From NCBI GenBank assembly GCA_019136655.1, contig JAGVTU010000003.1, positions 28,098 through 92,097 of the forward strand: a DNA stretch of 64,000 nt, written 5' to 3'. A model generated the notes under the pieces. That model was given only the letters and a program-made list of their open reading frames with translations, did no database searches and was not told the origin of the DNA. The position numbers and the translations under genes are program-made. Below, piece by piece: positions 1 to 48,551 of this stretch. Every line of letters begins with the position of its first letter. Position 1 is the stretch's first letter. Source of the DNA: Bacteroidota bacterium (lineage in GTDB: Bacteria > Bacteroidota > Bacteroidia > AKYH767-A > OLB10).

Positions 1-275
1 TTTTTCTCCCCACCATTTACATGATTTTTGTCATTTTTTCATAAGCTGATTTTTTTTGAAATTGCTTAAGAAACTGCGCATTTTGCAAGGTGAAATGATG
101 ATACATCACTTTTCTCTCTGAAAAACCTTCTTATCCGGTGCTTTTTGTCTTTGTTTTGACACAAACCCTTCATTATTCATGCGTAATGTCGCCTGCAATT
201 AAAGTCAAAAAATATTTAAGATAAATTTGTCCTAAATAAAACAGGTCTTACCTTTGCAACCCCAAAGTAAAGTTT

Positions 276-710
276 ATGTTTTCAAAAGCATGTGAGCACG
301 GAATTAAAGCAATTATTTACATAGCCACTCAGTCGCTGCAAGGGCAAAGGGCAAAAATTGGTGATGTGGCAATAAACTCCGGATCTCCCGGAGCTTTCAC
401 TGCAAAAGTTTTAGGTACACTTACCAAGTATAATATTGTTAATTCATATACCGGCCCTACAGGTGGCTTTGATATGTCGGTGAAACAAATGCGGCAGATA
501 AGAATGAGTGATATTGTAAAGATTATTGATGGCGATAATATTTACAATGGTTGCGGATTAGGCCTCAGCGAATGTAATGAATCAAAACCCTGCCCCATGC
601 ATGACAAGTTCAGTAAAGTGAGAGCGGGAATTAAAGATATGCTTACAAAAACTACTGTTTATGACCTTGCCAAAGGATTGCACGAAGGAAAGACAGTGCT
701 GATCAGATAA
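276..710 (+). CDS. Rrf2 family transcriptional regulator (IscR/NsrR-like, with Cys cluster)
   Basis: N-terminal wHTH resembles Rrf2 (HGIKAIIYIA...). A CGLGLSECNESKPC cysteine cluster is typical of Fe-S-binding Rrf2 regulators. It is the first gene of a co-directional, tightly spaced operon. Confidence 0.75.
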   Translation: MFSKACEHGIKAIIYIATQSLQGQRAKIGDVAINSGSPGAFTAKVLGTLTKYNIVNSYTGPTGGFDMSVKQMRQIRMSDIVKIIDGDNIYNGCGLGLSECNESKPCPMHDKFSKVRAGIKDMLTKTTVYDLAKGLHEGKTVLIR

Positions 711-797
711 CGAAGCAAAACTCACTTCTTGGTATTTTGTTCACTAATAAGATAAAAATTAATAAAAGTAAAAAGCAGTATAATTAAGATAAAAAAT

Positions 798-1034
798 ATG
801 GAGAATAAAGAAATCTGGTTACCATCATTAATTACAGCAACACCGCAGGAAGGACGTGAGTTAGCTATTAAAATGGCAAGAAAATCTATAGCTGCTATTC
901 AAACCGATCCGGAAATTAGAAAACAACTCCGCAGCGATTATGCTAATGACACAGCACAACTGATTGCTTCTGCAAATGTGGTGGCTCTCGAGTTTCAAAC
1001 CATTGCAGTTGCCAATAATTACTGGAAAAAATAA
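798..1034 (+). CDS. hypothetical small protein (78 aa)
   Basis: ORF lying between the Rrf2 gene and the truncated hemoglobin gene on the same strand. No motif recognised. Confidence 0.3.
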   Translation: MENKEIWLPSLITATPQEGRELAIKMARKSIAAIQTDPEIRKQLRSDYANDTAQLIASANVVALEFQTIAVANNYWKK

Positions 1035-1068
1035 TTCTCAGAATAAACCGGGTATATCCCTTTTTTAA

Positions 1069-1464
1069 ATGAGTGAGCTCAAAGACATAACATCCATTGA
1101 CGATATCAGAATTCTGGTAGATACTTTTTACGGCAAAATACGTGAAGATGATTTGCTGAAAGATATTTTTAACAATGTCATTCAGGACCGGTGGCCGCAA
1201 CATCTCGAAAAAATGTATCGTTTCTGGCAAACTGTTTTGTTTGACGAACACACTTATTTTGGTGCTCCATTTGTACCGCATGCGCAGCTTCCTGTAGAAA
1301 AACTTCACTTCGACCGTTGGGTGTCTTTATTCAACGAAACAGTTGATCATTTTTTCAGTGGCGAAAAAGCAACCCGCGCCAAATGGCAGGGCAACAGAAT
1401 GGCAGAAATGTTTCTGATGAAAATACAGTATTACAAAAACAACGCTTCAACACCGCTGCAATGA
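1069..1464 (+). CDS. group III truncated hemoglobin (Ctb-like)
   Basis: Aligns by eye along its whole length with Campylobacter Ctb. Shared segments include FY.K.R.D..L..IFNN.I and H..LP......F..W..LF.E. Confidence 0.75.
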   Translation: MSELKDITSIDDIRILVDTFYGKIREDDLLKDIFNNVIQDRWPQHLEKMYRFWQTVLFDEHTYFGAPFVPHAQLPVEKLHFDRWVSLFNETVDHFFSGEKATRAKWQGNRMAEMFLMKIQYYKNNASTPLQ

Positions 1465-1910
1465 AAATAATTAAACATCCGCAAGTGGTAGTTGCCGTTT
1501 TTATATGGATAGGTTTTGTCAGTGCAATAAGTTTTATGGAGTCATGGCTTAAGTTTCTGGCTCCCGGCATCACCATTCCTCTTGGACTCGGTGTTGGCAG
1601 GTTGGTGTTTGTTGCACTCAACAAGGTTGAGTGGGCGCTTGTACTGTTTATTTTAATCAGTTTGTTGTATGCACGCGAAAATATTTTCGTTATTGGGTAT
1701 GCAACATTTCTGATTCCGTTTTTTATTGTAATCATACAGACATTCTGGTTGCTGCCTGCAATGGATGCAAGAGCACAACTTCAGATTGACGGAACTACTG
1801 TTCCTCCTTCTTATCTGCATATTTATTTCGCAGGTTCCGAAGTTATAAAGGCAACCTGTTTGTTTATATTTGGCATCTCACACTTCAAACCTGTTAAAAA
1901 TTATGAGTAA
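1461..1910 (+). CDS. hypothetical 4-TM membrane protein
   Basis: The in-frame ATG at 1461 overlaps the trHb stop codon (ATGA). Four hydrophobic helices are visible. The track ORF at 1383 is probably over-extended at the 5' end. Confidence 0.45.
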   Translation: MKIIKHPQVVVAVFIWIGFVSAISFMESWLKFLAPGITIPLGLGVGRLVFVALNKVEWALVLFILISLLYARENIFVIGYATFLIPFFIVIIQTFWLLPAMDARAQLQIDGTTVPPSYLHIYFAGSEVIKATCLFIFGISHFKPVKNYE

Positions 1911-2808
1911 AGAAAAAATCTTAAACGACATTGATGGAAAATATCAGCAGCTTGGCGAAAATTCTGAAACCTATCTGAAAGGATTGCTTCAGGCAAAACC
2001 CATCACTTACTGGGATTATATTCAGGTGGACACACTGTTTACCCTGCAAAAAACCAGAACGGATTTTAAAGACGAAGCCATCTTTGTGATGTATCATCAG
2101 GTTACTGAATTGGTGTTGAAAATGATGGTGCACGAACTGCAGCAGCTTGTTTTCGAAGACCTGAAAGAAGAAATATGGATGGATAAACTCAACCGCCTCA
2201 ACCGTTATACTTCCATGCTCATTACCTCATTTGATGTGATGAAATTCGGAATGAACTATGACGACTATAATACTTTCCGCAGTACGCTTGCTCCTGCAAG
2301 TGGTTTTCAGTCGGCCACCTTCCGTTATCTCGAAATTTATTGCACACCGCTTGAAAACCTCATTAACGAAGAAGGTAAAAAACGCCTTCCTGCAAATCCA
2401 ACAGTTGAAGATTATTTTGAAAACATCTACTGGAAAGATGCAGGTACCGACAGAAAAACAGGTAAAAAATCTCTTACCCTTCGTTTGTTCGAAGAAAAAT
2501 ATTTGAACAGTTTTATTGAGTTAGCCAAAAAAGTAAAAGGAAATACGCTGGAAGAAAAAATCAAAAAGTTTCAGAATCCTTCAAAAGAATTTATATCAAA
2601 GCTTAAAGAGTTTGATATCATGTACAATGTGAAGTGGCCTATTGTGCATTTGGAAACTGCTCAGCATTACTTAGACAGCAAAGGCGAAAACAAAGCAGCA
2701 ACCGGTGGCAGCGAATGGAAAAAATATCTGCATCCGAAATATCAGCAACGTAAATTTTTCCCGAAACTATATACCCATGATGAAATAGCCCGTTGGGGAG
2801 AAGAGTAA
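1903..2808 (+). CDS. tryptophan 2,3-dioxygenase (TDO) family heme protein
   Basis: YWDYIQVDTLFTLQ and DEAIFVMYHQVTELVLKMMVHEL match the conserved TDO N-terminal helices (YxxYLxLDxLLxxQ / DELLFIxxHQxxELWFK). The ATG at 1903 overlaps the stop codon of the preceding gene. Confidence 0.65.
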   Translation: MSKEKILNDIDGKYQQLGENSETYLKGLLQAKPITYWDYIQVDTLFTLQKTRTDFKDEAIFVMYHQVTELVLKMMVHELQQLVFEDLKEEIWMDKLNRLNRYTSMLITSFDVMKFGMNYDDYNTFRSTLAPASGFQSATFRYLEIYCTPLENLINEEGKKRLPANPTVEDYFENIYWKDAGTDRKTGKKSLTLRLFEEKYLNSFIELAKKVKGNTLEEKIKKFQNPSKEFISKLKEFDIMYNVKWPIVHLETAQHYLDSKGENKAATGGSEWKKYLHPKYQQRKFFPKLYTHDEIARWGEE

Positions 2809-2828
2809 AAACAATTAAATATAATATC

Positions 2829-3599
2829 ATGGAAGTTAAAGATTTTGAAAAAGCACAGGGACACTGGATTCTTGCAAGAATGGGAAAAAGAGTTTTACGT
2901 CCCGGAGGTAAGGAGCTTACTCAAAAATTAGTTTCTGAATTACATATTTCTTCTGATGATGATGTGGTGGAATTTGCACCTGGGTTAGGTTACACAGCTA
3001 CACTTGCATTAAAAGATCATCCGCATTCTTATACCGGTGTGGATGCTGATGAAGATGCAATCAAATCATTAAAACAAAAAGTAAAAGGACAAAATATTCA
3101 GTTTGTTCTTGGCAATGCAGGAAATACCAGTATTGAAAGTAATTCTAAAGATAAAGTTTGGGGTGAAGCCATGCTTACTATGCATGCCGACCATCGCAAA
3201 TCCGAAATCATAAAAGAAGCATACCGCATTCTTAAAAAAGGAGGCCTGTATGCCATACATGAATTAGGGTTGAAGGATGTGAATGAAAATCTTAAAAGTG
3301 AAATTCAGAGAGACCTGGCAGTTACCATAAAAGTAAATGCCCGCCCACTGACAGAGCAGGAATGGAAAAGTTTACTCGAGAAAGAAGGTTTCACAGTCAG
3401 AAAAATTTATACCAATGAAATGTTGTTGCTCGAGACTAAACGTATTCTGGATGATGAAGGATTTTTCAGAACACTGAAGATTGGTTACAACATTCTGGTG
3501 AACTCATCTGCACGTAAACGCATTACAGAGATGAGAAAATCATTCAGAAAACATCAAAAACACATCAATTCAATTGTTCTGATAGCACAAAAAAGTTAA
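2829..3599 (+). CDS. class I SAM-dependent methyltransferase
   Basis: A VVEFAPGLGYTA motif resembling a Rossmann-fold SAM-binding site. The ATG at 2829 is in frame with the track ORF and avoids overlap with the upstream gene. Confidence 0.6.
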   Translation: MEVKDFEKAQGHWILARMGKRVLRPGGKELTQKLVSELHISSDDDVVEFAPGLGYTATLALKDHPHSYTGVDADEDAIKSLKQKVKGQNIQFVLGNAGNTSIESNSKDKVWGEAMLTMHADHRKSEIIKEAYRILKKGGLYAIHELGLKDVNENLKSEIQRDLAVTIKVNARPLTEQEWKSLLEKEGFTVRKIYTNEMLLLETKRILDDEGFFRTLKIGYNILVNSSARKRITEMRKSFRKHQKHINSIVLIAQKS

Positions 3600-3617
3600 T
3601 TTATAAATATCGTACCA

Positions 3618-4343
3618 ATGAGTATTTCAAAAGAAAGTATCATAGGAGAGTTGGTTGCCAATGATTATCGCACCGCTTCTGTTTTTAAAAAACACAACAT
3701 AGACTTTTGCTGCAATGGCAACAGAAGTATTGCAGACGCCTGTGAGAAAAAGAAAATTGACAGCAATGAACTGATACAGCAACTGGAGCAGGCAATAACT
3801 ACGAACAATGCATCGTCTGTTGACTTTAACTCCTGGCCACTCGACTTGCTGGCTGATTACATTGAGAAAAAACATCATCGCTATGTTGAATCCCGTTCGC
3901 AGGAAATAAAACCATTTCTTGATAAAGTAATTCGTGTGCATGGTGACAGACATCCTGAGCTGATTGAAACAGGAAAACTTTTTAACGAGAGCGTTGGAGA
4001 ACTGGCAATGCACATGAAAAAAGAAGAGCTTATGCTGTTCCCCTTCATTCGCAGAATGGTTCAGGCAGAACAAAACGGAACTTCTGTTCAGGCGCCATTC
4101 GGATCGGTGCAAAACCCCATTAAAGCTATGATGCACGACCATGATGGTGAAGGAGAGCGTTTTCGTAAAATTTCCTCTCTTACCAACAACTATAACCCTC
4201 CTGCAGATGCATGTAATACATACAGAGTAACTTATTCGATGTTAAAAGAATTCGAAGAAGACTTACATTTGCACATTCATTTGGAAAATAACATCTTATT
4301 CCCAAAAGCAATTTCAATGGAGGAAAAATTAGCAACAGTTTAA
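3618..4343 (+). CDS. ric: iron-sulfur cluster repair di-iron protein RIC (YtfE/ScdA family)
   Basis: ScdA_N-like N-terminus (DFCCNGNRSI). The C-terminal half carries hemerythrin-like His/Glu-rich cation-binding segments (HH..E, H..E..LFP, HDHDGE, HLHIHLEN). Confidence 0.75.
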   Translation: MSISKESIIGELVANDYRTASVFKKHNIDFCCNGNRSIADACEKKKIDSNELIQQLEQAITTNNASSVDFNSWPLDLLADYIEKKHHRYVESRSQEIKPFLDKVIRVHGDRHPELIETGKLFNESVGELAMHMKKEELMLFPFIRRMVQAEQNGTSVQAPFGSVQNPIKAMMHDHDGEGERFRKISSLTNNYNPPADACNTYRVTYSMLKEFEEDLHLHIHLENNILFPKAISMEEKLATV

Positions 4344-4382
4344 TCAAAATCAATTTATAACAAATTAAAAATTCAATTAAAA

Positions 4383-4901
4383 ATGAAAAAATCAATTTTA
4401 GTTTTTGCATCTGCAGCTATGTTTTTAGCTGCCTGTAGTTCATCAACCGAGCAAAAAAGCACCGAACCTGCTGCTCCTGCCGAAACAACTACTCCTGAAG
4501 CAGCTCCTGCTCCTGCCCCTGCTGAGCCTGCTGTAGTTACTCTTAACGCAGGTGATGATATGAAGTATGACATTACAGAAATTAAAGTTAAAGCGGGACA
4601 AACAGTGAAACTAACACTGCACCACACAGGTAAATTGCCGGTGTCAGGAATGGGCCATAACTTTGTTTTGTTAGCTTCTGGTGTTGACTTGGCTGAGTTT
4701 GCTCAGGCTGCTCTTAAAGCAAAAGACAGTGAGTATATTCCGGCAGATCTGTCAGATGATATTCTTGCTCATACAAAACTTATCGGTGGTGGCGAAACAA
4801 CAGAAATCGAATTTACTGCTCCTGAAAAAGGTACATATGATTACCTGTGTACTTTCCCGGGACACTATGCTATGATGCAAGGTAAATTTATTGTTGAATA
4901 A
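4383..4901 (+). CDS. azu: azurin (type-1 blue copper protein), lipoprotein-type signal
   Basis: Signal peptide with a lipobox Cys, followed by a Pro/Ala-rich linker. Azurin copper-ligand pattern: GMGHNFVL ... CTFPGHYAMMQG (Gly-His ... Cys-x4-His-x3-Met). Overall alignable with Pseudomonas azurin. Confidence 0.8.
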   Translation: MKKSILVFASAAMFLAACSSSTEQKSTEPAAPAETTTPEAAPAPAPAEPAVVTLNAGDDMKYDITEIKVKAGQTVKLTLHHTGKLPVSGMGHNFVLLASGVDLAEFAQAALKAKDSEYIPADLSDDILAHTKLIGGGETTEIEFTAPEKGTYDYLCTFPGHYAMMQGKFIVE

Positions 4902-36945: not shown

Positions 36946-38472
36946 TCAGTTTACTCTGATGTTATCAATTCTTGTTTCTCTGTCGGCATTGTACTGAACG
37001 GTAAGAATCAAGTTTCCATTATCATCATACGTTTTCCAAATACCGTTGCGCATGCCATGTTGGTAGTTTCTTATTTCACGTAATTTTCCATTTTCATTGT
37101 AATAGAGATGTTCTCCTTCTTCCAAACCGTCTGCATATTTACCTGAAAAAGCCTGTTTGCCGTTTCTATAGGTTTGATGCCACATCCCAAATTTTCTTCC
37201 ATCGCGGTATTCACCTTCGGCAATATATTCTCCATTATTATATTTCCACAGTCCCTCTTTATTGCCTTCAATGTATTTTCCGGTGGCTATCAGCTGCAGC
37301 GAATCGTTGTACTCATTCGAGATGCCATTTTCTTTCCCTTTGTCGAATGTTTCATCTCTGCGCAAATTTCCATTTTCAAAATACCATTTCCATTCTCCCT
37401 GCGGCAATCCGTTTTCATAGTTTCCGGTTTGTTGCACACTGTTGTTTTTAAATAAGTATTTCCAGGTACCTGTTTTCTTTCCATTTTTATATTCTCCTTC
37501 GGCACGTAAAGTTCCGTCATCATAAAAATATTTCCACCAACCCTGCCTTTGATAATTATCATCCATCATTCCTTCACCGGCAAGTTTATTATCCTGATAT
37601 AATTTTGCAGATGTTACTTTTCCGTTTTCATCAAAAAATTTTTCTGTACCCTCTTTCTTACCATCAATCACATTTACTATTGATTTGAGTTTTCCATTCG
37701 GGTAAAAGTTTCTTTCAAGTTCCAGCTTAGCGGTATTTTGTTTTTCGACAACAGGTTCTCCGTTTTTATATTTCTCGTTTTTTGTCAGCGTGCCATTCTC
37801 AGAATATTCTTTATAGAAACCATTCAGTTTATCATCAAGATACTGTGCTTCGCTTTTAACCTTTTCGTTTGGATAAAATGTTTTCCATACACCTTGTTTT
37901 AATCCAAACTTATCAATACGGTTTATTCGCTCAACATTTTTTACATATCCTTCGCTGTAATGTGTAATGGTTACAATTCGCCCGTCTTCGGCATATTCTT
38001 TTGCAATACCTTCCTCCACTCCGTTCTTAAACGGTATTTCAGAAATTACTTTTCCATTTTCGCCATATTCCTTAAACCATCCTTCGCGTATATTGTCTTT
38101 TAACTGCTCTTCTGTTTTAAGTTTGCCATCAGCATAAAAAGTACGTTGCAGTCCATTCTTTTTTCCATCAGAATAGTTAAACTCTGAAACAAGTACGCCT
38201 GCATCTGAATAAAATTTCCACAGGCCTTCAGGTTGATTATTTTTTCTTTCACCTTCTGATTTCAGTTTTTCATTTTCATAATATGATTTCCAAATTCCTT
38301 CAGGTTTACCGTTTACAAATTTGCCTTCGCTGCTTTTTTTTCCGTTTGGATAATAAAAAACTTTATATCCATCGGTAATAATGGTATCCGTCTGGCCGAA
38401 GCCTGACATCTGAAAAAGCAAAAACAAAATAATCAGGGAACTTTTATATCCCATATTTAGCCGATATTTCAA
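36946..38472 (-). CDS. MORN-repeat (YwqK family) periplasmic protein
   Basis: Signal peptide. About 20 tandem repeats of about 23 aa with the pattern G.WK.YYENGKLK.EG.YKNGK. Translationally coupled to nadA upstream by a 29-nt overlap, and its stop lies 1 nt before the nadD start codon. Confidence 0.7.
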
Positions 38473-41089: not shown

Positions 41090-41857
41090 CTAAAAATCTT
41101 TCCTGATAAATTTACGGATAGCAGCAATTGTCGGAACAATAATCCACACAATTAATATTGCAAAAATTACAACCGATCCTTTTTGTGAGCCCAAAAACTC
41201 TTTGAACAATGCACCGCTGTAGCCCATTAGTGCAGAGTAATCGGTGTGAATCAAAATTAAAATACGTGAAATATCAACGGGGTTGAACGAACTGAGCACA
41301 ATGATTAATTTTTCAATAGGATAATCGCTGAACTGAAACATGATTAACAGCAGAATACCATCGTAAAGAATTGAAAAAAACAACCAAATGAAAATAGCCA
41401 TACCAATTCCTTTGGCTTTATCTCTGGTAATGACAGAACCAAAAAATGCAAGTGATGTGAAAATAAGCGTGAGCAATGCACCTGTTATAATAAACAACAA
41501 GCCAATTTTATCGGGAGAATAAATTAAAACAGGAATTCCTGCACCTACAATAAATGCAGTAACCAGTGATAATGATACTGCTGCATAAATACTGGTGATT
41601 AATTTTTTTCTGGAAATGGGTTGCGCCACCAGCAGCTCAATAAACTCACCTGAATTGAAAATATAAATGGTGCTGTAAATTAAACTTACCAAAGGCACTA
41701 TAAACAGAATAATATTAAGCAGACTTAAAATACCTTTTGTGGTATTGTTATCCAGATTAAAAATGCCGAAACAGGTTAAAAACAAAAAGAGCAAATAAGT
41801 AAGCACAACCTTACTTTTCAGTATATCAATGGTAACGTACTTGACAATCTTATTCAT
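41090..41857 (-). CDS. nosY: ABC-2 type permease, NosY-like
   Basis: 6-TM permease overlapping the upstream NosF ATPase by 4 nt. Last gene of the nos cluster. Confidence 0.65.
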   Translation of the reverse strand: MNKIVKYVTIDILKSKVVLTYLLFLFLTCFGIFNLDNNTTKGILSLLNIILFIVPLVSLIYSTIYIFNSGEFIELLVAQPISRKKLITSIYAAVSLSLVTAFIVGAGIPVLIYSPDKIGLLFIITGALLTLIFTSLAFFGSVITRDKAKGIGMAIFIWLFFSILYDGILLLIMFQFSDYPIEKLIIVLSSFNPVDISRILILIHTDYSALMGYSGALFKEFLGSQKGSVVIFAILIVWIIVPTIAAIRKFIRKDF

Positions 41858-42561
41858 AAGGTTTTTAAAATTGAAGTAATTACTTTTGAAACAGACTTTT
41901 CACCGGTGCGGTGCTGAAGTTCTTCAATGCCTGAGTGAAACACCAGATTACCTTCGCGCAGATACATTATTTCTGATACCAACTCATCCAACTCACTGAG
42001 TATATGCGAAGTGATGAGAATAATTTTTCCTTTGCTTCGTTCGTGTTTGATTTTTTCTTTCAGTATTTCAGAAGATAAAGGATCAAGGCCGGCAGTAGGT
42101 TCATCCAGAATAATTATTTCAGGAGAAAACAAAAATGCAAGACAGGCACTTACCTTTTGAGTGGTACCACCCGACAGTGTGCCCATACGTTTGGAGAATA
42201 AAGCTTTCAAGCCGAAAGCTTCCATCAGTTCAGTGTCAGCACTGCTCAAGGCTGTTTTTCTTATTTCAAGAATCATATCGAACACCTGCTGAATGGTCAT
42301 ATTCTGTGGATAACGACCTATCTGTGGCATATATCCAATGATGTTGCGGTATTTATAATCTCCTTTGATAGACTGATTGTTTATTTCAATCGTTCCCGAA
42401 TCCGGAATCAGCATTCCGAGCAGACATTTGATAAAAGTAGTTTTGCCGGAAGCGTTAGGACCCAGTAGTGCTACAGAATTACTTTTCTTTATCTGAACAG
42501 AAATATCCTTAAGCACATGCAGCTTACCGAATTTCTTGTTAACGTTTTTTATATCTATCAC
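41854..42561 (-). CDS. nosF: ABC transporter ATP-binding protein, NosF-like
   Basis: Walker A (GPNASGKTT), signature motif LSGGTTQK, Walker B (IILDEP). Sits between nosD and nosY. Confidence 0.8.
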   Translation of the reverse strand: MIDIKNVNKKFGKLHVLKDISVQIKKSNSVALLGPNASGKTTFIKCLLGMLIPDSGTIEINNQSIKGDYKYRNIIGYMPQIGRYPQNMTIQQVFDMILEIRKTALSSADTELMEAFGLKALFSKRMGTLSGGTTQKVSACLAFLFSPEIIILDEPTAGLDPLSSEILKEKIKHERSKGKIILITSHILSELDELVSEIMYLREGNLVFHSGIEELQHRTGEKSVSKVITSILKTL

Positions 42562-43859
42562 ATCTTTACCGGTTTTATCAGAGGAGTGTTGTCAACCAGG
42601 TTTTCAGGAGTGATACTTGGAATGATTTTTTCGCTCTGATCGAGTAGAAAAACTATAAAACTTCTCAAAAATACGGATGCTACGGGAATATTTTCAATGA
42701 CCATGCTGAATAAACTGATTGGGCGGTAAGGAACATCACCAACACCATCACGTTTTAAGTCATAACCATCATATTTATCCCAGAAGTTTCCGTTAAAATT
42801 ATTTAATACAAGGCTTCCATTGGTTGCAACATCAAATGTGTTTTCAAAAAAATTATTGTTGTTAACATTATTGTTATTACAACTTGCCTGTATGCGGATG
42901 GCATATCCATTTCTCAGAAATTTATTGTTGGTTACATCTATTCTGTTAGTACCTTCCAGATAAATACCAATGGTATTTTGTTCAAAAACATTATCTCTGA
43001 TGATACCGTCATTTATTTCTTTCAGTAGCAGCCCATATGTAGATTCACCCTGATTAAACAGAAAGTGATTCTTAAACATGTGGATATTATTTGAAAACAT
43101 TACTGCCACACCTGCACCATTTTTTTCGAATGTATTGTTAATGTATTCATCGTTGTTTGAAAACATAAAGTGTAACCCATAACGAATGTTACTCTTGCAA
43201 TAATTATCAGTGATGGTGGAATGTTGAACAAATTCAAAATAAATACCATCCCGATGACCCGTAATATTGTTATTTGCTATTTTAGCATAACTGTTCTTCC
43301 AGAGATGAATGCCATTTCCGGTTGTTTGTTCGTCATTACCCGGAACACCTCTTATCTGGTTGTATGTAATACTAAAATTGTCGCATCCTGCAATGTAAAT
43401 GGCAAAATGTGTATTAAGAATGGTATTTTTTGTAATTAAGAACTGACGGCTGTCAATTACTTTAATGGCGGCTAGATCTTTTAATGACGAAAATCCTGAA
43501 TACTGAAATGTAAGTCCTGAGACAACCACACCGGCAACATCTTTTATAGTAAGAATTTCATAAGTGCCCTCACCATCCAGCACCGGATTGTTTTTACCCA
43601 GAAGGGTAATTTTTTTCTTTATTACAATATTTTTTTCTTTGTAAATACCGCCATTTACCACAATGGTATCTCCATCTTTGGCAATGTCAACAGCATTTTT
43701 TATGGTGGTTATTTTATCACGGCCCGAAACGTTGATCACTTCTGCATGAAGTGGCAACATGAAAAATAAAAAAACAACAGAAAAGAAAAGACAGCGTATC
43801 CAACTAAGGAAATGCAGCCAAAACCTTTTCCCAATTACAAATTTCTCCACCGTATTCAT
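42558..43859 (-). CDS. nosD: nitrous oxide reductase maturation protein NosD (periplasmic right-handed beta-helix)
   Basis: Repeated parallel-beta-helix units (N.I....GI.L). Size and position match NosD. Confidence 0.8.
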   Translation of the reverse strand: MNTVEKFVIGKRFWLHFLSWIRCLFFSVVFLFFMLPLHAEVINVSGRDKITTIKNAVDIAKDGDTIVVNGGIYKEKNIVIKKKITLLGKNNPVLDGEGTYEILTIKDVAGVVVSGLTFQYSGFSSLKDLAAIKVIDSRQFLITKNTILNTHFAIYIAGCDNFSITYNQIRGVPGNDEQTTGNGIHLWKNSYAKIANNNITGHRDGIYFEFVQHSTITDNYCKSNIRYGLHFMFSNNDEYINNTFEKNGAGVAVMFSNNIHMFKNHFLFNQGESTYGLLLKEINDGIIRDNVFEQNTIGIYLEGTNRIDVTNNKFLRNGYAIRIQASCNNNNVNNNNFFENTFDVATNGSLVLNNFNGNFWDKYDGYDLKRDGVGDVPYRPISLFSMVIENIPVASVFLRSFIVFLLDQSEKIIPSITPENLVDNTPLIKPVKM

Positions 43860-44235
43860 TTAAAAGCTTCCGAGCGTTTTCTTCTGATGAAAAAGCAGCA
43901 AACCCACTATTCATCGGAGTGCGAATATCGGCACTTTTCAGAAAAACGGCATTTGCTGCTTCTAACAAATCAGTCTTATCAAAATAATTTACAACTAAAA
44001 CATGACTATACTGTACTTCTTTATTTTCAGGCAAAGCTTTCCACTGTATCATGCAGTTTACATCGTCAAACTTATAAATACGGCCTTTATTGGTAATCAA
44101 CTCTGCACCAAAACGTGTATCTGCTACAGGCATTTTACAGTGATGGCAACTGTCTTTTCCGGCAACAAGGGGTTCCGGTTTCTGCGCACAAGAGGTAAAT
44201 ACCAATACAAATAACAGCAAGAACAATTTTTTCAT
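43804..44235 (-). CDS. nosL: copper chaperone lipoprotein NosL
   Basis: Lipoprotein signal (FTSC). CHHCKMPV metal-binding motif. 143 aa, immediately upstream of nosD. Confidence 0.6.
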   Translation of the reverse strand: MKKLFLLLFVLVFTSCAQKPEPLVAGKDSCHHCKMPVADTRFGAELITNKGRIYKFDDVNCMIQWKALPENKEVQYSHVLVVNYFDKTDLLEAANAVFLKSADIRTPMNSGFAAFSSEENARKLLNEYGGEICNWEKVLAAFP

Positions 44236-44813
44236 TACGCTGCTTTATGTTTTCGCCATTCGATAAACCAAACAACAGCCGCAATGACTACAGAGCCTGC
44301 AACAATATAACCTCCCAAATCGGGCATTGAAAATGCATCAAAATTCAACAATTGTTTATGACCAATAATTGGAGGCTGATACGACATGCCCGGAACCTGA
44401 ATAGGAGCATCAGGGCTCAGGTTATGTCCATAGTCGTAAGTCCACTGATAAAAATCGTACATTGCTAAAACACCTCCTAATGCAGAAACAATCAGGTAGC
44501 TGAATAAGAGTTTGCGACTTCCGGTAATTGCAACCAGCAAACCATAAATAATGAATGCCGCTACAATATAAACAAGGTATGAAAATTCCGGAAACATATC
44601 AACACTTATTTTTTTCATTCCGATATAATGATTCAAACCATTGATGATATCAACATCACCGGTAAGTTTATTAAACCATATATTCATCATTAACCCTTCC
44701 GGATATTGTGGCGCGAACAAATCTATCCGCCAGATAGGAGTGAAATAAGAAATAATAATAGCTAAAGAACATAAAGCGATTATTACTCTGGAAAGGCCAC
44801 TTAGCTTTTGCAT
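44235..44813 (-). CDS. 4-TM membrane protein, NosB-like
   Basis: Integral membrane protein in the slot that NosB occupies in clade-II nos clusters. Confidence 0.4.
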   Translation of the reverse strand: MQKLSGLSRVIIALCSLAIIISYFTPIWRIDLFAPQYPEGLMMNIWFNKLTGDVDIINGLNHYIGMKKISVDMFPEFSYLVYIVAAFIIYGLLVAITGSRKLLFSYLIVSALGGVLAMYDFYQWTYDYGHNLSPDAPIQVPGMSYQPPIIGHKQLLNFDAFSMPDLGGYIVAGSVVIAAVVWFIEWRKHKAA

Positions 44814-44836
44814 ATAAAGGATGTTATTTTGAATTA

Positions 44837-45406
44837 TTAATTACCGGGAGGTAGCAATACGGCATCTACAACATGAATAATACCATTTGCTGCTGGAATA
44901 GTGGCTATTATATTTGCCTGATTATTTACCATTATCTTTCCATCTTTAACAGAAAGGCTAATGTTTTTTGAATTAGCCTGATTGATACTTTGTCCATCAG
45001 AGAACATTTCAGGCTTAAATACTCCAACAGAAACATGGTACTCCAATATATCCTGAAGCTTTGCTTTGTTTTCTGGTTTCATAAGGTCTTCCACAGTTCC
45101 TTTTGGTAATTTATTGAAAGCATCGTTGGTGGGTGCAAATACAGTAAATGGTCCTGCATTTGATAATACTGTTACCAGTTCAGCCTGTTTGAGCGCAGCT
45201 ACCAATGTTGAATGGTCAGCCGAACCAACGGCAATTTTAACAACATCTTTTTGAGAATCATTATCCTGAACCGCTTCTTGTCCTCCTGCAGGAGATTCCT
45301 GAGCAGTGGTGCTTTCACCGTTTGTTTTATTTTCAGCTGCGGGAGGGTTGCATGCATATACCAATGCTGCAATCATTACTAAATAAAATAATTTATACTT
45401 TCTCAT
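44837..45406 (-). CDS. fasciclin (FAS1) domain lipoprotein
   Basis: Lipoprotein signal (VYAC). FAS1 motifs TVFAPTNDAF and HVVDAVLLP. Confidence 0.75.
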   Translation of the reverse strand: MRKYKLFYLVMIAALVYACNPPAAENKTNGESTTAQESPAGGQEAVQDNDSQKDVVKIAVGSADHSTLVAALKQAELVTVLSNAGPFTVFAPTNDAFNKLPKGTVEDLMKPENKAKLQDILEYHVSVGVFKPEMFSDGQSINQANSKNISLSVKDGKIMVNNQANIIATIPAANGIIHVVDAVLLPPGN

Positions 45407-45469: not shown

Positions 45470-47461
45470 TTATAGTTTATCATCTTCAGATTTTGGCTGA
45501 TTAGTTCCTGTGCTGAAATGTAAAGGAACATTGTTATTAGGAGCACTGATTCGGATATAACCTTGCATTTCCTGATGCAAAGCTGAACAGAAGTCGGTAC
45601 AATAAATTGGATAAACACCAACTTTCTCAGGCTTCCAAACAAGTGTTTGTGTTTCGCCCGGCATAATAAGCAATTCAGCATTGTTAGCACCCTTTACAGC
45701 AAACCCATGTGGTACGTCCCAATCTTGTTCCAAATTAGTAACGTGGAAGTAAACTACATCACCCAACTTCACGCCTTCAATGTTATCAGGAGTAAGATGT
45801 GAGCGTATTGCAGTCATATAAATATGCACTTCGTTGCCTTTACGTTCAACTTTGGCTTCTTTATCGCCCATGGTTACATAAGGATGTTTATTTTCTTCAA
45901 TTTTATAAAACTTAACAGAGTTCTTCGACACTATATCAGCAGGAATTGCTTCAGCGTAGTGAGGCTCGCCTATAGTTGGGAAGTCAAGTATCATTTTCAT
46001 TTTGTCACCACTGATATCATACAACTGAGCACTCTGACATAATTCAGGTCCTGTTGGCAGATAACGGTCTTTGGTAATTTTGTTGTAAGCTATTAGATAT
46101 TTACCCCATGGCTTTTTGGTAGGCCCACCGGGTACACTCAGGTGTCCAACAGAGTAATAAGTAGGAGCACGATCTAATACCTGAAGGTCGCTCACACGCC
46201 ACTTAACAACTTCAGAAGATACGAACATAGAAGTATAAGCATTACCGTTAGCATCAAACTCTGTGTGCAATGGTCCTAAGCCAGGTTTTTTAACTTCACC
46301 ATGTAATACGGCATCATATTTTAACACCGGAATACCCGCATAGTCACCTTCAAATGTTTTCTTATCTATAGCATCCAGCATTTTAGTGAATGAGAACACA
46401 GGAATAACTGCAGCAAGTTTTCCACTACCTACAATATATTCTCCTGTTGGGTCGGTATCACATCCATGCGGGTTTTTGGGACAAGGCATGAAATAAACCA
46501 TGTCAGGACAATCTTTTGGGTCGAGCATAATCACTTCTTTCTCCATTACTGAAGTTGCAGTATGAGTATGTTCGTCAAAGGTATTGTGAGCATAATTTAC
46601 ACTTTTCTTAATACCTTTTCCGGCTTTTACATATTCTTCTGCTTTTTTCCAGTTAACAGCCATAATGAAGTCTTTATCATTTTTGGCAGAGTTTACTTCA
46701 AGAAGTGTGTTTGCTCTTTCTGTATTATAACAACTTACAAAAAACCATCCGTGAGATTTTCCTTTTCCTGCTCTTGCCAGGTCAAAGTCAACACCCGGTA
46801 ACAGAATCTGAAATGCAAGGTTCATTTTACCTGTTTCTTTATCAACACCGATTAAGCTAATGGTAGCTTTAAAGTTATCTTTATACGTATTGATAGGCAC
46901 ATCATTATTATTATCAGACATTGGCACGGCAAAACGAGTTCCTGCAATAACATACTCTGAATTCTCTGTAATAAATGGAGAGGAGTGGTTACCTGCACTG
47001 TTAGGAATTTCAATAATTTCAGCCGTTTTGAAAGACTTCATATCAATTCTTGCAATACGCGGAGTATTGTTTCCGTTTCCAAAAGCCCATCTTCCATCAT
47101 GCACACCATCAGTCTCTGATAAGGCAATATGATGTAAGTCGTCCCAAGGAACAAATCCATGAGAAGTGTTGAGCATAGGCTTTGTTTCTTCGCTGTAACC
47201 GTAGCCTTTTTCTGGATCTACAGAAAATACAGGGATAACTCTAAAAAGCCTTCCTGAAGGAATACCATAAACTGACATTTGGCCGCTGAAACCTCCGGAA
47301 ACGAAGTTGTAAAACTCATCGTATTTTCCGGGAGCCACATAAACCTTTTGAGCAGCGTCTCCTGACGTAGTAGTACTTACGTTTTTGGGTTTACAGGAGA
47401 AGACGGTTGTTGCAAACGCTATTGCAAGCAGCGATAACGTTTTTAATTCTGATTGTCTCAT
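45470..47461 (-). CDS. nosZ: nitrous-oxide reductase NosZ, Sec-dependent (clade II)
   Basis: Sec/lipoprotein-type signal, not Tat. Seven-bladed propeller region with His-rich CuZ ligand segments. C-terminal cupredoxin CuA site CTDFCSALHQEM (C-x2-FC-x3-H-x2-M). Confidence 0.9.
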   Translation of the reverse strand: MRQSELKTLSLLAIAFATTVFSCKPKNVSTTTSGDAAQKVYVAPGKYDEFYNFVSGGFSGQMSVYGIPSGRLFRVIPVFSVDPEKGYGYSEETKPMLNTSHGFVPWDDLHHIALSETDGVHDGRWAFGNGNNTPRIARIDMKSFKTAEIIEIPNSAGNHSSPFITENSEYVIAGTRFAVPMSDNNNDVPINTYKDNFKATISLIGVDKETGKMNLAFQILLPGVDFDLARAGKGKSHGWFFVSCYNTERANTLLEVNSAKNDKDFIMAVNWKKAEEYVKAGKGIKKSVNYAHNTFDEHTHTATSVMEKEVIMLDPKDCPDMVYFMPCPKNPHGCDTDPTGEYIVGSGKLAAVIPVFSFTKMLDAIDKKTFEGDYAGIPVLKYDAVLHGEVKKPGLGPLHTEFDANGNAYTSMFVSSEVVKWRVSDLQVLDRAPTYYSVGHLSVPGGPTKKPWGKYLIAYNKITKDRYLPTGPELCQSAQLYDISGDKMKMILDFPTIGEPHYAEAIPADIVSKNSVKFYKIEENKHPYVTMGDKEAKVERKGNEVHIYMTAIRSHLTPDNIEGVKLGDVVYFHVTNLEQDWDVPHGFAVKGANNAELLIMPGETQTLVWKPEKVGVYPIYCTDFCSALHQEMQGYIRISAPNNNVPLHFSTGTNQPKSEDDKL

Positions 47462-47489: not shown

Positions 47490-47984
47490 TTATTTTACTC
47501 CGTCATTTTCGCGCATAAACTCATACACATGACGGGCATCATCATCTGTCAATCCCTGATTGGGCATACGCACCAAGCATTCCTCTAATAAACCCTGTGC
47601 AATTGCATCGGTATCGAGCATTTCATCAGGATTTGTAGAGAAGTTCATAATCCACTCTGCAGTACGTTTTTTAGTAACATCTTTCCATCCCGGTCCAACA
47701 AGCTTTTCGTCTGTGAGACGGTGACAGGCAGAACATTTTACATCATAAATTTTCTTTCCGGCATCTGCCATTTGTTTATCAAGGGTAGGACTTACTTCAA
47801 CATTTGTAAATTTACCTACACCTTTATTTTCATCCGAAGCTTGTACTTCTTCGGCTTCTTTTACCAACTCTTTTGAATCAGTTGGTTCTTCTTTTTTTTG
47901 TTCGTTGCTTCCACAAGCATAAAATGCTATGATTGCAGTAAGAACAACCATGGTTTTAAGTGTTAAATTTTTAATGGATTTCAT
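47490..47984 (-). CDS. mono-heme c-type cytochrome (nos-associated)
   Basis: Signal peptide. A single CSACH heme-binding motif. Immediately upstream of nosZ, as in clade-II clusters. Confidence 0.75.
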   Translation of the reverse strand: MKSIKNLTLKTMVVLTAIIAFYACGSNEQKKEEPTDSKELVKEAEEVQASDENKGVGKFTNVEVSPTLDKQMADAGKKIYDVKCSACHRLTDEKLVGPGWKDVTKKRTAEWIMNFSTNPDEMLDTDAIAQGLLEECLVRMPNQGLTDDDARHVYEFMRENDGVK

Positions 47985-48056
47985 ATTTAATCTGATTTAT
48001 ATTAATGACGGTACAAAAGTAAAAAAGAGATTAAGTGCGCACATATATAACAAGGA

Positions 48057-48090
48057 TGATAATTATCAACAAATAATTTGATAATTATCT
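48057..48090 (-). promoter_or_regulatory. two tandem copies of the 12-bp palindrome TGATAATTATCA (second copy 11/12), 22 bp centre to centre, upstream of the cytochrome c-nosZ operon
   Basis: 48057-48068 is TGATAATTATCA, a perfect palindrome. 48079-48090 is TGATAATTATCT. On the minus strand a Bacteroidota -7 box TACTTTTG (48014-48021) lies about 30 nt upstream of the cytochrome c ATG. The palindromes sit about 35-75 nt upstream of that box. Confidence 0.5.
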
Positions 48091-48170
48091 GATTGCACAC
48101 CCCCAATACATCCTAAATGACCGATTTTGAAGTATTCAAAAAATATTGAACAAAATGCAGCTATTTTTCA

Positions 48171-48551
48171 CTAACAACTAATACGGTAAACAATCCATGT
48201 ATAAAAGAAAGACAACACCAATGAACCAACAACAAGTATTGTAGCTCTTACAACATCTTTTTTATGGCAATGATGGTCGTCCACATTTTCAAGATTACCC
48301 AATTCTTTAAAATTATATAGACTGAAAAACGCAAAAAGGATACAAAACCGGGTAAGAACTTCAATGAATAAAACGATGGTTGCAAAAGTGGCAATCATCA
48401 ATAAAACGGCCAACCACTTAGCACAGGCCAAACGCACTGCAATGGTCAGCAATACGGAAATAAAAAGAAATAAGAACAGGAATTTCTGCCTTACCCTAAC
48501 TTCTTTTTCGCCTATATTACAACATCCTGCAAGATAGCCTTTGTCCGACAT
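48171..48551 (-). CDS. hypothetical small membrane protein (possibly DUF2892-like)
   Basis: Two or three TM helices. N-terminal NIGEKEVRVRQ weakly resembles the YgaP/DUF2892 NIGxxDRxxR motif. CC and HHCH cysteine/histidine clusters. Confidence 0.35.
   Translation of the reverse strand: MSDKGYLAGCCNIGEKEVRVRQKFLFLFLFISVLLTIAVRLACAKWLAVLLMIATFATIVLFIEVLTRFCILFAFFSLYNFKELGNLENVDDHHCHKKDVVRATILVVGSLVLSFFYTWIVYRISC

What the first reader, a model, noticed from the sequence alone, without database searches (positions are those of the whole stretch)
48014..48090. Tandem TGATAATTATCA palindromes upstream of a -7 TAnnTTTG box: candidate nos operator
Two copies of a 12-bp palindrome (one perfect, one 11/12) are spaced 22 bp apart, which is two helical turns. 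On the transcribed minus strand they lie about 35-75 nt upstream of TACTTTTG, which precedes the cytochrome c ATG by about 30 nt. This is the classic geometry of a dimeric activator or repressor site. The half-site GATAAT/ATTATC resembles Fur-box hexamers, so metal (Fe or Cu) or redox control of N2O reductase expression is conceivable. The inverted ATCAA-N8-TTGAT orientation is not a canonical FNR/NnrR box.
Basis: seen in the sequence. Interest (0 to 1): 0.55.

Follow-up and report, generated by a model that had tools for sequence, protein, structure and literature searches.

The report
FNR-type operator pair before nos operon
The two palindromes are real and are best read as binding sites for a Crp/Fnr-family regulator in the promoter of the nitrous-oxide-reductase operon of an uncultured Bacteroidota bacterium; this is an expected kind of control, but apparently not yet described for this phylum.

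Summary
TGATAATTATCA lies at 48057-48068 and TGATAATTATCT at 48079-48090, 22 bp apart. Both sit in the 186-nt gap upstream of the minus-strand operon cytochrome c-nosZ-fasciclin-hyp-nosL-nosD-nosF-nosY, and 35-69 nt upstream of a Bacteroidota -7 box (TACTTTTG, 48021-48014).

The Fur-like reading is not supported. With one flanking base on each side the boxes read TTGATAATTATCAT and CAGATAATTATCAA, which are FNR-type boxes (TTGAT-N4-ATCAA).

- **Conservation:** 60 of 67 related nos promoters carry a perfect TGAY-N4-RTCA box, against 12% of control windows. The central four bases vary freely.
- **Spacing:** 35 of 74 promoters have two boxes exactly 22 bp apart. The proximal box usually lies 22 nt before TAnnTTTG, a class-II-like position near -41.
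- **Regulators:** Crp/Fnr genes with an FNR-like recognition helix often lie next to these operons.
- **Second palindrome:** AAAGACA-N4-TGTCTTT tracks neighbouring Rrf2 genes instead. It is absent from this nos promoter.
- **This lineage:** the proximal box and an unusual 34-nt spacer to the -7 box are conserved. Only half of the distal box is conserved.

The cognate regulator is not in the window, and the signal and the transcription start are inferred. I rate it a new member of a known kind, of moderate interest.

The parts
48056..48069 (-). Proximal Crp/Fnr-type box, TTGATAATTATCAT on the transcribed strand (core TGATAATTATCA, 48057-48068)
   Evidence: The core TGAy-N4-ATCA is invariant in the window's own lineage (L089, L091-L094) while N4 changes from AATT to ATCA or AACA. 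The same box type is present in 60 of 67 related nos promoters.
48078..48091 (-). Distal box, CAGATAATTATCAA (core AGATAATTATCA, 7/8 of TGAY-N4-RTCA), 22 bp upstream of the proximal box
   Evidence: The 22-bp tandem spacing is found in 35 of 74 related promoters and almost never at other spacings. In the window's lineage only the promoter-proximal half (AAtTATCAA) is invariant, so this site may be auxiliary or partly a relic.
48014..48021 (-). -7 promoter box TACTTTTG (Bacteroidota TAnnTTTG type)
   Evidence: TA..TTTG is invariant in the lineage alignment. There are 34 nt between the proximal 14-mer and this box, the same in L089 and L091-L094. Most other relatives have 22 nt.
47992..48005 (-). 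Conserved 5' leader element TTAATATAAATCAG, a degenerate third box-like dyad (TTAAT-N4-ATCAG) between the -7 box and the ATG
   Evidence: It scores 2 mismatches to TTGAT-N4-ATCAA. TTAAT..AAATCA is invariant in six sequences of the lineage. Its function was not tested.
47490..47984 (-). First gene of the operon: c-type cytochrome (164 aa)
   Evidence: Pfam Cytochrom_C, E = 2.7e-09. A homologue lies directly upstream of nosZ in 77 of 80 related loci.
45470..47461 (-). nosZ (663 aa), nitrous oxide reductase; the context is that of clade II Sec-type Bacteroidota nos clusters
   Evidence: Pfam nos_propeller. It is 72-83% identical to NosZ of Bacteroidota genomes.
41090..45406 (-). Rest of the nos operon: fasciclin-domain protein, 192-aa membrane protein, nosL, nosD, nosF (ABC ATPase), nosY (ABC-2 permease)
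   Evidence: Pfam hits. The same gene order occurs in related loci.

Best explanation
The two palindromes are binding sites for a homodimeric Crp/Fnr-family transcription factor, of the FNR-box type TTGAT-N4-ATCAA. They lie in the promoter of the cytochrome c-nosZ-nosLDFY operon.

Shown:
- The sites exist and are of the FNR-box type.
- The half-sites, the tandem 22-bp spacing and a fixed distance to the -7 box are conserved across many Bacteroidota nos promoters.
- Crp/Fnr genes with an FNR-like recognition helix are frequent neighbours of these operons.

Inferred:
- A regulator encoded elsewhere in this genome binds the proximal box, probably with a second dimer on the distal box on the same DNA face (22 bp is about two turns).
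- It recruits RNA polymerase to a promoter that has a good -7 box but no recognisable -33 element.
- This switches the operon on under low oxygen and/or nitrogen oxides.

In this lineage the boxes sit 12 bp further from the -7 box than in most relatives. Assuming a start about 12 nt after the T of TAnnTTTG, their centres are near -53 and -75 instead of near -41 and -63. The distal box has lost half of its conservation. This fits the loss of the divergent regulator gene that the distal box serves in relatives.
For: 1. Box type: the proximal site matches TTGAT-N4-ATCAA at 9/10 positions and the distal at 8/10.
2. Conservation: a perfect TGAY-N4-RTCA box occurs in the cytochrome c/nosZ promoter zone of 60 of 67 related loci, against 157 of 1351 (11.6%) control windows. 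N4 varies.
3. Unbiased dyad enrichment puts TATG-N8-CATA, ATGA-N6-TCAT and TGAT-N4-ATCA (one motif in three registers) at the top, 13- to 30-fold over controls.
4. Tandem geometry: 35 of 74 loci have two boxes at exactly 22 bp, against 2 or fewer at any other spacing from 14 to 32. Controls reach the same score in 1.0% of windows.
5. Promoter geometry: the proximal 14-mer is followed by exactly 22 nt and then TAnnTTTG in 19 loci. In 14 of 16 loci with a divergent rrf2 gene, a reverse -7 box lies 21-22 nt from the distal box. This is a symmetric bidirectional promoter with one box per promoter.
6. Close-range footprint: in L089 and L091-L094 (cytochrome c 88% and 65-67% identical) the proximal core, the 34-nt spacer and the -7 box are kept while the surrounding sequence diverges.
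7. Regulators: about 30 of 80 loci carry a Crp/Fnr gene within 6 kb, about 20 of them divergent and adjacent. These proteins have cNMP_binding plus HTH_Crp_2 domains. Their recognition helix is RVETVIR or TATETTIR, with E and R as in FNR VETISR and no CRP-type Arg before the Glu. The L004 protein aligns with FNR including CxxC...C and the central Cys.
8. Regulon: 20 of 21 further tandem boxes in the loci are intergenic. They lie upstream of a CuA-type haem-copper oxidase subunit II, ScdA, rrf2, crp-like genes and Hsp20.
9. Context: FNR, DNR and NnrR boxes at nosZ are established in Proteobacteria (PMC1274295). Crp/Fnr Nss regulators are implicated for clade II nosZ in Campylobacterota (PMC11539149). 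Oxygen lowers clade II nosZ transcripts in a community where the likely main N2O sinks were Bacteroidota (Cloacibacterium) (PMC11879220).
Against: - No Crp/Fnr gene lies in the 64-kb window.
- The one found 3.3 kb beyond its left edge in the same organism has a CRP-like helix (SREVISR). It sits next to its own GTGAC-N4-GTCAC box upstream of an OsmC-rhodanese-thioredoxin operon, so it is probably a different paralogue.
- The 34-nt spacer puts the boxes at a position that is neither the classical class II nor a classical class I position. The transcription start is unknown.
- The left half of the distal box is not conserved in L091-L094.
- Single boxes are not enriched window-wide.
- There is no binding or expression data. 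Activation rather than repression, and the signal, rest on analogy. Only one of the adjacent regulators (L004) has FNR-like cysteines.
Confidence: 0.68

Rival explanations
1. The boxes are operators of an Rrf2-family (NsrR-like) repressor, for example the one encoded at 276-710, which would repress nos until NO or nitrite appears.
For: In 14-16 related loci an rrf2 gene is divergently transcribed from the same intergenic region as the tandem boxes. A box overlapping the -33 region would also suit a repressor. Clade II nos clusters have been noted to be enriched in Rrf2 neighbours (PMC6264515). The window encodes an Rrf2 regulator.
Against: A different palindrome, AAAGACA-N4-TGTCTTT, placed on the predicted start site, co-occurs with Rrf2 neighbours. 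It is missing at that position from the loci that have a Crp neighbour instead. It emerges as a separate motif in the unbiased scan. The window's own rrf2 promoter carries that second type, AAGATAAATTTGTCCT at 218-233, the only perfect match in the window, and has no TGAY-N4-RTCA box near its -7 box. Boxes occur equally in promoters with a Crp neighbour and no Rrf2. A 5-4-5 dyad is the Crp/Fnr geometry.
Confidence: 0.1
2. The boxes are Fur-family (iron or other metal) operators, as the first reader suggested from the GATAAT/ATTATC hexamers.
For: With a 3-nt offset the proximal region GGATGATAATTATCA matches the Bacillus-type 7-1-7 Fur box TGATAATNATTATCA at 12 of 14 positions. NosZ is a copper enzyme, so metal control is conceivable.
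Against: The match to the classical 19-bp Fur box is only 14 of 19, and 11 sites in the window do as well. The resemblance depends on the central AATT, which is not conserved. Among 40 orthologous box regions only 1 reaches 2 mismatches to the 7-1-7 box and 34 have 4-6; all have 6-10 mismatches to the 19-mer. In the nearest lineage the proximal box is TGACATCAATCA. The conserved positions are TGAy and rTCA.
Confidence: 0.03
3. The sites are bound by some other, uncharacterised dimeric regulator, or act as repressor sites rather than activator sites, or the distal box is only a decaying relic of an ancestral bidirectional promoter.
For: The cognate factor was not identified in this genome. The 34-nt spacer is atypical. 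The left half of the distal box is lost in L091-L094, and the divergent gene it serves elsewhere is absent here. L091-L094 have a TTTG -33 element 20 nt before the -7 box, so their promoter could be active without an activator.
Against: The motif type, the neighbouring regulators' recognition helices and the regulon content all point to Crp/Fnr. The proximal box is strictly conserved at a fixed distance from the -7 box in the lineage. In the window and L089 the -33 position has no TTTG, as expected for an activator-dependent promoter.
Confidence: 0.15
4. It is a chance AT-rich palindrome duplication with no function.
For: The window is AT-rich. An identical 16-mer (TTGATAATTATCATCC) also occurs inside a MORN-repeat coding region at 37549-37564. 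Single boxes are not enriched window-wide.
Against: Position, spacing and half-sites are conserved across dozens of species and in the close lineage. None of 100 shuffles reaches the observed count of near matches.
Confidence: 0.03

Closest known systems
FNR box / class II FNR-dependent promoters (E. coli FNR, TTGAT-N4-ATCAA centred near -41.5)
   Same: It has the same 5-4-5 dyad and the same half-site core (TGAT/ATCA), with variable central bases. In most relatives the box centre lies 29.5 nt before the T of the -7 box, which is about -41 if transcription starts about 12 nt later. Neighbouring regulators keep the Glu and Arg of the FNR recognition helix.
   Different: The promoter is the Bacteroidota -33/-7 type (TAnnTTTG), not -35/-10. 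The family consensus flank is aTGAy...rTCAt rather than TTGAT...ATCAA. Boxes come in 22-bp tandems. In this window the boxes are 12 bp further upstream. Only one adjacent regulator (L004) has FNR-like cysteines. All adjacent regulators score below every NCBIfam equivalog cutoff.
DNR / NnrR / NNR / FixK2 control of nosZ in denitrifying Proteobacteria
   Same: A Crp/Fnr-type activator with an FNR-like box upstream of nos (and nir, nor) genes (PMC1274295; PMC5582078 by title and abstract). Here the same box type also precedes a haem-copper oxidase subunit II, ScdA and regulator genes next to nos in relatives.
   Different: This is a different phylum, with a clade II Sec-type nos cluster that has a cytochrome c first gene and no nosR. 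The regulators are not orthologues of DNR or NnrR by family score. The signal is unknown.
NssA/NssB/NssC (Crp/Fnr) regulation of clade II nos in Wolinella and Nitrosophilus
   Same: A clade II nosZ is proposed to be under Crp/Fnr-type regulators with a TTGA-N6-TCAA consensus, identical in core to TGAy-N4-rTCA (PMC11539149).
   Different: Those are Campylobacterota. There is no evidence of orthology, and no tandem 22-bp architecture or Rrf2 co-operator is reported there.
Fur box (GATAATGATAATCATTATC; 7-1-7 TGATAATnATTATCA)
   Same: GATAAT/ATTATC hexamers are present in this window's copies, with 12 of 14 positions matching the 7-1-7 form at an offset.
   Different: The dyad spacing differs, and the hexamers are not conserved in orthologous sites. 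The resemblance is incidental.
NsrR/Rrf2 operators
   Same: Rrf2 genes neighbour many Bacteroidota nos operons (PMC6264515).
   Different: The motif that tracks Rrf2 is a separate 7-4-7 palindrome, AAAGACA-N4-TGTCTTT, on the start site. It is present in the window only at the rrf2 gene's own promoter.

Membership tests
Crp/Fnr-family operator (FNR-type box) | 14-bp dyad with 5-4-5 geometry matching TTGAT-N4-ATCAA | tested here: met
   The proximal box matches at 9/10 positions and the distal at 8/10. The core TGAY-N4-RTCA scores 8/8 and 7/8.
Crp/Fnr-family operator (FNR-type box) | Half-sites conserved and central bases free in orthologous promoters | tested here: met
   60 of 67 promoters carry a perfect core, against 11.6% of controls. 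N4 is variable. It is the top motif in the unbiased dyad scan.
Crp/Fnr-family operator (FNR-type box) | Fixed activator position relative to the core promoter (class II near -41.5, or class I one or more turns upstream) | tested here: inconclusive
   Relatives have a 22-nt spacer to TAnnTTTG in 19 loci, which is class-II-like. The window and its lineage have a conserved 34-nt spacer, 12 bp further. No transcription start is mapped.
Crp/Fnr-family operator (FNR-type box) | A cognate Crp/Fnr regulator with a matching recognition helix in the same genome | tested here: inconclusive
   None lies in the window. The paralogue 3.3 kb outside has a CRP-like helix and its own GTGAC box. Relatives have adjacent regulators with an FNR-like E..R helix.
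Crp/Fnr-family operator (FNR-type box) | Protein binding and regulatory effect demonstrated | not testable with these tools
   This needs EMSA, DAP-seq or reporter assays.
Fur box | 19-bp GATAATGATAATCATTATC or 7-1-7 TGATAATnATTATCA, conserved in orthologous promoters | tested here: not met
   The window scores 14/19 and 12/14. Of 40 orthologous sites, 34 have 4-6 mismatches of 14, and all have 6-10 of 19.
Rrf2/NsrR operator | The motif co-occurs with the regulator gene and is present in the regulator's own promoter | tested here: not met
   The motif that co-occurs with Rrf2 is AAAGACA-N4-TGTCTTT. The window's rrf2 promoter has AAGATAAATTTGTCCT and no TGAY-N4-RTCA box near its -7 box.
Bacteroidota sigma-A promoter (-33 TTTG / -7 TAnnTTTG) | TAnnTTTG a short distance upstream of the gene, with a TTTG -33 element about 19-21 nt upstream | tested here: inconclusive
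   The -7 box is perfect and conserved. A -33 TTTG is present in L091-L094 but not in the window or L089. The consensus itself is from my own knowledge of Bacteroides and Flavobacterium promoter studies.

The most novel reading that the evidence does not exclude
Bacteroidota nos operons may share an undescribed two-part control module. One part is a pair of Crp/Fnr boxes 22 bp apart that forms a symmetric bidirectional class-II-like promoter with a divergent rrf2 or crp gene. The other part is an Rrf2 operator placed on the nos transcription start. The lineage of this window would then have rewired the module: the divergent regulator and the Rrf2 operator are gone, and the boxes are shifted 12 bp upstream of the -7 box. 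N2O reduction in this organism would no longer be gated by NO sensing and would respond to a single Crp/Fnr signal with a different activation geometry.
Probability: 0.3. Interest if true: 0.55.

Novelty: new member of a known kind. Interest (0 to 1): 0.4.

Why it matters
Bacteroidota with clade II nosZ are among the main biological sinks of the greenhouse gas N2O in soils and wastewater. What switches their nosZ on is largely unknown, because regulation has been worked out in Proteobacteria. A conserved and precisely positioned cis-element, together with candidate regulators next to it in relatives, turns that question into concrete experiments: which Crp/Fnr paralogue binds, which signal it senses, and which lineages also have the Rrf2 gate. 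It also gives a motif for predicting nos regulons in metagenome-assembled genomes. The mechanism itself, an FNR-type box before nos, is what a specialist would expect.

Tried and rejected
- **Fur box.** The window alone gives a tempting 12/14 match at an offset, but orthologous sites do not keep it.
- **Rrf2 operator.** Rejected as the main reading, because a different palindrome tracks Rrf2 and marks the window's own rrf2 promoter.
- **Cognate regulator in the window.** tblastn with two nos-adjacent Crp-type proteins found nothing. The paralogue just outside the window looks like a different specificity class.
- **Same-species contigs.** L081-L088 carry an essentially identical promoter (one base differs in one contig, outside the boxes), so they give no footprint.
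- **Alternative core promoters.** The position 22 nt after the proximal box reads TAATCTCT, a poor -7 box. A possible TTTG (48073-48070), 20 nt, TATATATG (48049-48042) promoter that would embed the proximal box is not conserved in L089 or L091-L094.
- **RNA element.** No Rfam match lies in the intergenic region, and no terminator-like site was found.
- **Sigma-70 scan.** It gives only chance-level hits and does not apply to this phylum.
- **MORN gene copy.** The identical 16-mer at 37549-37564 lies in coding sequence, so I treated it as coincidence without further test.
- **Literature.** Five of the seven successful searches, the ones aimed at this phylum, found no description of this element in Bacteroidota. 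Subscription-only papers and RegPrecise could not be searched.

Full report
**What is there**

On the plus strand the region reads ATGATAATTATCAA (48056-48069), caaataat, TTGATAATTATCTG (48078-48091). Together they form a larger perfect inverted repeat, GATAATTATCAA-N8-TTGATAATTATC.

All neighbouring genes are on the minus strand:
- a 126-aa membrane ORF with no family match (48171-48551);
- a c-type cytochrome (47490-47984);
- nosZ (45470-47461);
- a fasciclin-domain protein, a 192-aa membrane protein, nosL, nosD, an ABC ATPase and an ABC-2 permease.

The boxes lie in the 186-nt gap before the cytochrome gene. Read on the transcribed strand the layout is as follows.

| Element | Sequence |
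|---|---|
| Distal box | CAGATAATTATCAA |
| Spacer | 8 nt |
| Proximal box | TTGATAATTATCAT |
| Spacer | 34 nt |
| -7 box | TACTTTTG |
| Leader | 29 nt |
| Start codon | ATG |

The observation and its geometry are therefore correct. Near matches to the 12-mer are more frequent than in shuffles: 16 against 6.9, with 0 of 100 shuffles reaching 16. There are only four hits at 0-1 mismatch in the window.

**What kind of site it is**

With one flanking base on each side, each palindrome is an FNR-type box (TTGAT-N4-ATCAA), matching at 9/10 and 8/10 positions.

I fetched 80 loci encoding NosZ proteins 72-83% identical, from one-genome-per-species Bacteroidota assemblies: Chitinophagaceae, Saprospiraceae, Sphingobacteriales and Flavobacterium. 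The window's own species is not among them.

- **Single box.** A perfect TGAY-N4-RTCA lies in the zone upstream of the cytochrome gene in 60 of 67 loci with enough upstream sequence. It occurs in 157 of 1351 (11.6%) control 600-nt windows.
- **Central bases.** The four central bases vary freely: AAAT, TAAT, GCAT, TGTA and others.
- **Unbiased scan.** A scan of all 4-mer dyads with spacers 0-10 ranks TATG-N8-CATA, ATGA-N6-TCAT and TGAT-N4-ATCA first, 13- to 30-fold over controls. These are three registers of one motif, tATGAy-N4-rTCATa. Next come ATCA-N10-TGAT, which is the tandem arrangement, and a second, separate palindrome.

**Architecture in relatives**

Two boxes at exactly 22 bp occur in 35 of 74 promoters. 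Any other spacing from 14 to 32 bp is found in at most two, and control windows reach the same score in 1.0%.

In 19 loci the proximal 14-mer is followed by exactly 22 nt and then TAnnTTTG. In 14 of 16 loci with a divergently transcribed rrf2 gene, a reverse -7 box (CAAAnnTA) lies 21-22 nt on the other side of the distal box. This is a symmetric bidirectional promoter with one box per promoter.

The box centre is 29.5 nt from the T of the -7 box. That is about -41 if transcription starts about 12 nt after that T. This start position is my own knowledge of Bacteroides and Flavobacterium promoters and is not measured here. It corresponds to the classical class II position of FNR and CRP.

**Which regulator**

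About 30 of the 80 loci carry a Crp/Fnr-family gene within 6 kb upstream of nosZ, and about 20 of these are divergent and directly adjacent.

- **Domains.** Representatives have cNMP_binding and HTH_Crp_2 domains. They score below every NCBIfam equivalog cutoff, so they are family members but not FNR, CRP or FixK proper.
- **Recognition helix.** It reads RVETVIR or TATETTIR. Compared with FNR VETISR and CRP RETVGR (reference segments from my own knowledge), they keep the Glu and Arg and lack the CRP-type Arg before the Glu. This fits a TGA-type rather than a GTGA-type half-site.
- **FNR-like cysteines.** The regulator of L004, one of the closest NosZ relatives, aligns with Aliivibrio FNR from the CxxC motif through the central Cys. 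The others lack these cysteines, so the signal cannot be generalised.
- **Regulon.** Of 21 further tandem boxes elsewhere in the loci, 20 are intergenic. They precede a CuA-type haem-copper oxidase subunit II just after nosY, ScdA, rrf2, crp-like genes, Hsp20 and OsmC. This is a respiratory and nitrosative-stress flavoured set.

**The Rrf2 alternative**

Rrf2 neighbours of clade II nos clusters have been noted before (PMC6264515), so I tested this rival explicitly. The second enriched palindrome, AAAGACA-N4-TGTCTTT, sits immediately after the -7 box, on the predicted start site.

- **Co-occurrence with Rrf2.** The palindrome is found together with an Rrf2 gene within 3.5 kb in 16 loci. There are 3 loci with Rrf2 only and 36 with neither. 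The 12 palindrome-only cases are mostly off-position matches.
- **Crp-neighbour loci.** The palindrome is absent at that position from loci whose neighbour is a Crp gene.
- **The window's rrf2 gene (276-710).** Its own promoter carries AAGATAAATTTGTCCT at 218-233. This is the only perfect match to AAGAYA-N4-TRTCYT in 64 kb, and it overlaps the -33 region of that gene's TACCTTTG box.
- **The nos promoter here.** It has no such site.

The simplest assignment is Rrf2 to the 7-4-7 palindrome and Crp/Fnr to the 5-4-5 boxes.

**The window's own lineage**

Same-species contigs have an essentially identical promoter, with a single difference in one contig outside the boxes. A metagenome scan with the cytochrome found closer relatives: L089 and L090 (88% identical) and L091-L094 (65-67%). 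All have the 126-aa ORF upstream and the same promoter plan.

- **Invariant:** the proximal core TGAy....ATCAt, with N4 changing from AATT to ATCA or AACA; the 34-nt spacer; TA..TTTG; a leader element TTAAT..AAATCA; and the right half of the distal box (AAtTATCAA).
- **Not conserved:** the left half of the distal box.
- **-33 element:** L091-L094 have a TTTG 20 nt before the -7 box. The window and L089 do not.

In this lineage the proximal box is therefore clearly under constraint, at a position 12 bp further from the -7 box than in most relatives. L051 has a similar 33-nt spacer. The distal box may be auxiliary, or partly a relic of the ancestral bidirectional promoter, because the divergent regulator gene is absent here.

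**Regulator in this organism**

No Crp/Fnr gene is in the window. Contigs of the same organism that extend past the left edge show a 209-aa Crp/Fnr gene 3.3 kb outside. Its helix is CRP-like (SREVISR). A GTGACTAAAGTCAC box lies 22 nt before a cACCTTTG box upstream of the adjacent OsmC-rhodanese-thioredoxin operon. This paralogue shows that the same promoter grammar operates in this genome, but it is probably not the nos regulator.

One more box of the nos type, ATGATTTTTGTCAT, lies at window 21-34. It is in the intergenic region upstream of the operon rrf2-HTHP-globin-Trp-dioxygenase-like-methyltransferase-ScdA-cupredoxin.

**Fur**

In the window alone the proximal region matches the 7-1-7 Fur box at 12/14 with a 3-nt offset, and the 19-mer at 14/19. 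This depends on the central AATT. Among 40 orthologous box regions, 34 have 4-6 mismatches of 14 to the 7-1-7 box, and all have 6-10 of 19 to the 19-mer. All are within 1-3 of 10 of the FNR consensus.

**Model**

*Shown:* an FNR-type dyad pair in the nos promoter; phylum-wide conservation of half-sites, tandem spacing and distance to the -7 box; frequent adjacent Crp/Fnr genes with an FNR-like helix.

*Inferred:* a Crp/Fnr paralogue encoded elsewhere binds the proximal box, probably with a second dimer at the distal box on the same helix face. It activates a promoter lacking a -33 element under low oxygen and/or N-oxides. Community data show that higher oxygen lowers clade II nosZ transcripts in a system where Bacteroidota (Cloacibacterium) were the likely main N2O sinks (PMC11879220). 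FNR, DNR and NnrR boxes at nosZ are established in Proteobacteria (PMC1274295), and Crp/Fnr Nss regulators are implicated in Campylobacterota (PMC11539149).

*Unresolved:* the transcription start, activation versus repression at the unusual 34-nt spacing, the signal, and the identity of the regulator.

**Novelty and verdict**

Seven literature searches ran. The five aimed at this phylum found no description of this element or of the two-motif architecture for Bacteroidota nos promoters. Subscription journals and regulon databases could not be checked.

The kind of element is well known, so I rate it a new member of a known kind. Interest is moderate, 0.4. The mechanism is expected, but it makes regulation of an environmentally important N2O sink directly testable.

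Noticed in passing
window 218-233 (+), promoter of the rrf2 gene at 276-710: AAGATAAATTTGTCCT is the only perfect match in the window to AAGAYA-N4-TRTCYT. It overlaps the -33 region of the rrf2 gene's TACCTTTG box. It has the same 7-4-7 geometry and half-site as the AAAGACA-N4-TGTCTTT palindrome found on the nos start site in relatives with a neighbouring rrf2 gene. It is a likely Rrf2 (NsrR-like) operator.
   Followed up: partly
L002, L005, L008, L011, L013, L016, L018, L020, L021, L025, L026, L047 and others, about 10 nt after the nos -7 box: A conserved palindrome AAAGACA-N4-TGTCTTT sits at the predicted transcription start of the cytochrome c-nosZ operon. It co-occurs with a divergent or nearby rrf2 gene and is absent from the window's nos promoter.
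   Followed up: partly
window 21-34 (+): A further box of the nos type, ATGATTTTTGTCAT, lies in the intergenic region upstream of the operon rrf2-HTHP-truncated globin-Trp-dioxygenase-like-methyltransferase-ScdA-cupredoxin (276-4901). It is about 215 nt from the rrf2 -7 box, and only a weak TGAAATTG follows it at 22 nt.
   Followed up: partly
L139:1447-2111 (same organism, 2.6-3.3 kb left of window position 1): A 209-aa Crp/Fnr paralogue with a CRP-like recognition helix (SREVISR) is followed by GTGACTAAAGTCAC placed 22 nt before cACCTTTG, upstream of an OsmC-DUF6132-rhodanese-thioredoxin operon. The promoter grammar is the same but the half-site differs (GTGAC).
   Followed up: partly
window 37549-37564 (+): TTGATAATTATCATCC, identical over 16 nt to the proximal nos box plus two flanking bases, lies inside the coding region of a MORN-repeat protein (36946-38472, minus strand). 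I treated it as coincidence.
   Followed up: no
window 47992-48005 (-): The leader element TTAATATAAATCAG lies between the -7 box and the ATG. TTAAT..AAATCA is invariant in the six-sequence lineage alignment. It resembles a degenerate third box, or it may be a translation-initiation region.
   Followed up: partly
window 48171-48551 (-): A 126-aa predicted membrane protein with an N-terminal CC and an HHCH motif has no Pfam or NCBIfam match. It is conserved directly upstream of the nos promoter in L089-L094 and in same-species contigs. No terminator-like site separates it from the nos promoter.
   Followed up: no
window 48032-48045: A GC-rich palindrome TATGTGCGCACTTA lies in the spacer between the proximal box and the -7 box. 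It is not conserved in L089.
   Followed up: partly
L013, L018, L026 (about 3.3-4.9 kb upstream of nosZ); L010: Receiver-domain-Crp fusion regulators of 345-353 aa (REC plus cNMP-binding plus HTH) are encoded near nos clusters. This is an unusual architecture for the Crp/Fnr family.
   Followed up: no
L013:13302-13337, L014, L026 (just after nosY); L039, L026, L047, L044: Tandem 22-bp boxes also precede a CuA-type haem-copper oxidase subunit II gene, ScdA, Hsp20 genes and an OsmC/NadA divergent pair. This suggests a wider regulon.
   Followed up: partly
L031, L096, L099, L101-L110 and others: In more distant Bacteroidota the box 22 nt before the -7 box (often TAATCTTG) is a variant, tATGAyTnnACGCATAAA. 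Canonical ATGAy-N4-rTCAT boxes lie further upstream, giving two or three boxes per promoter.
   Followed up: no
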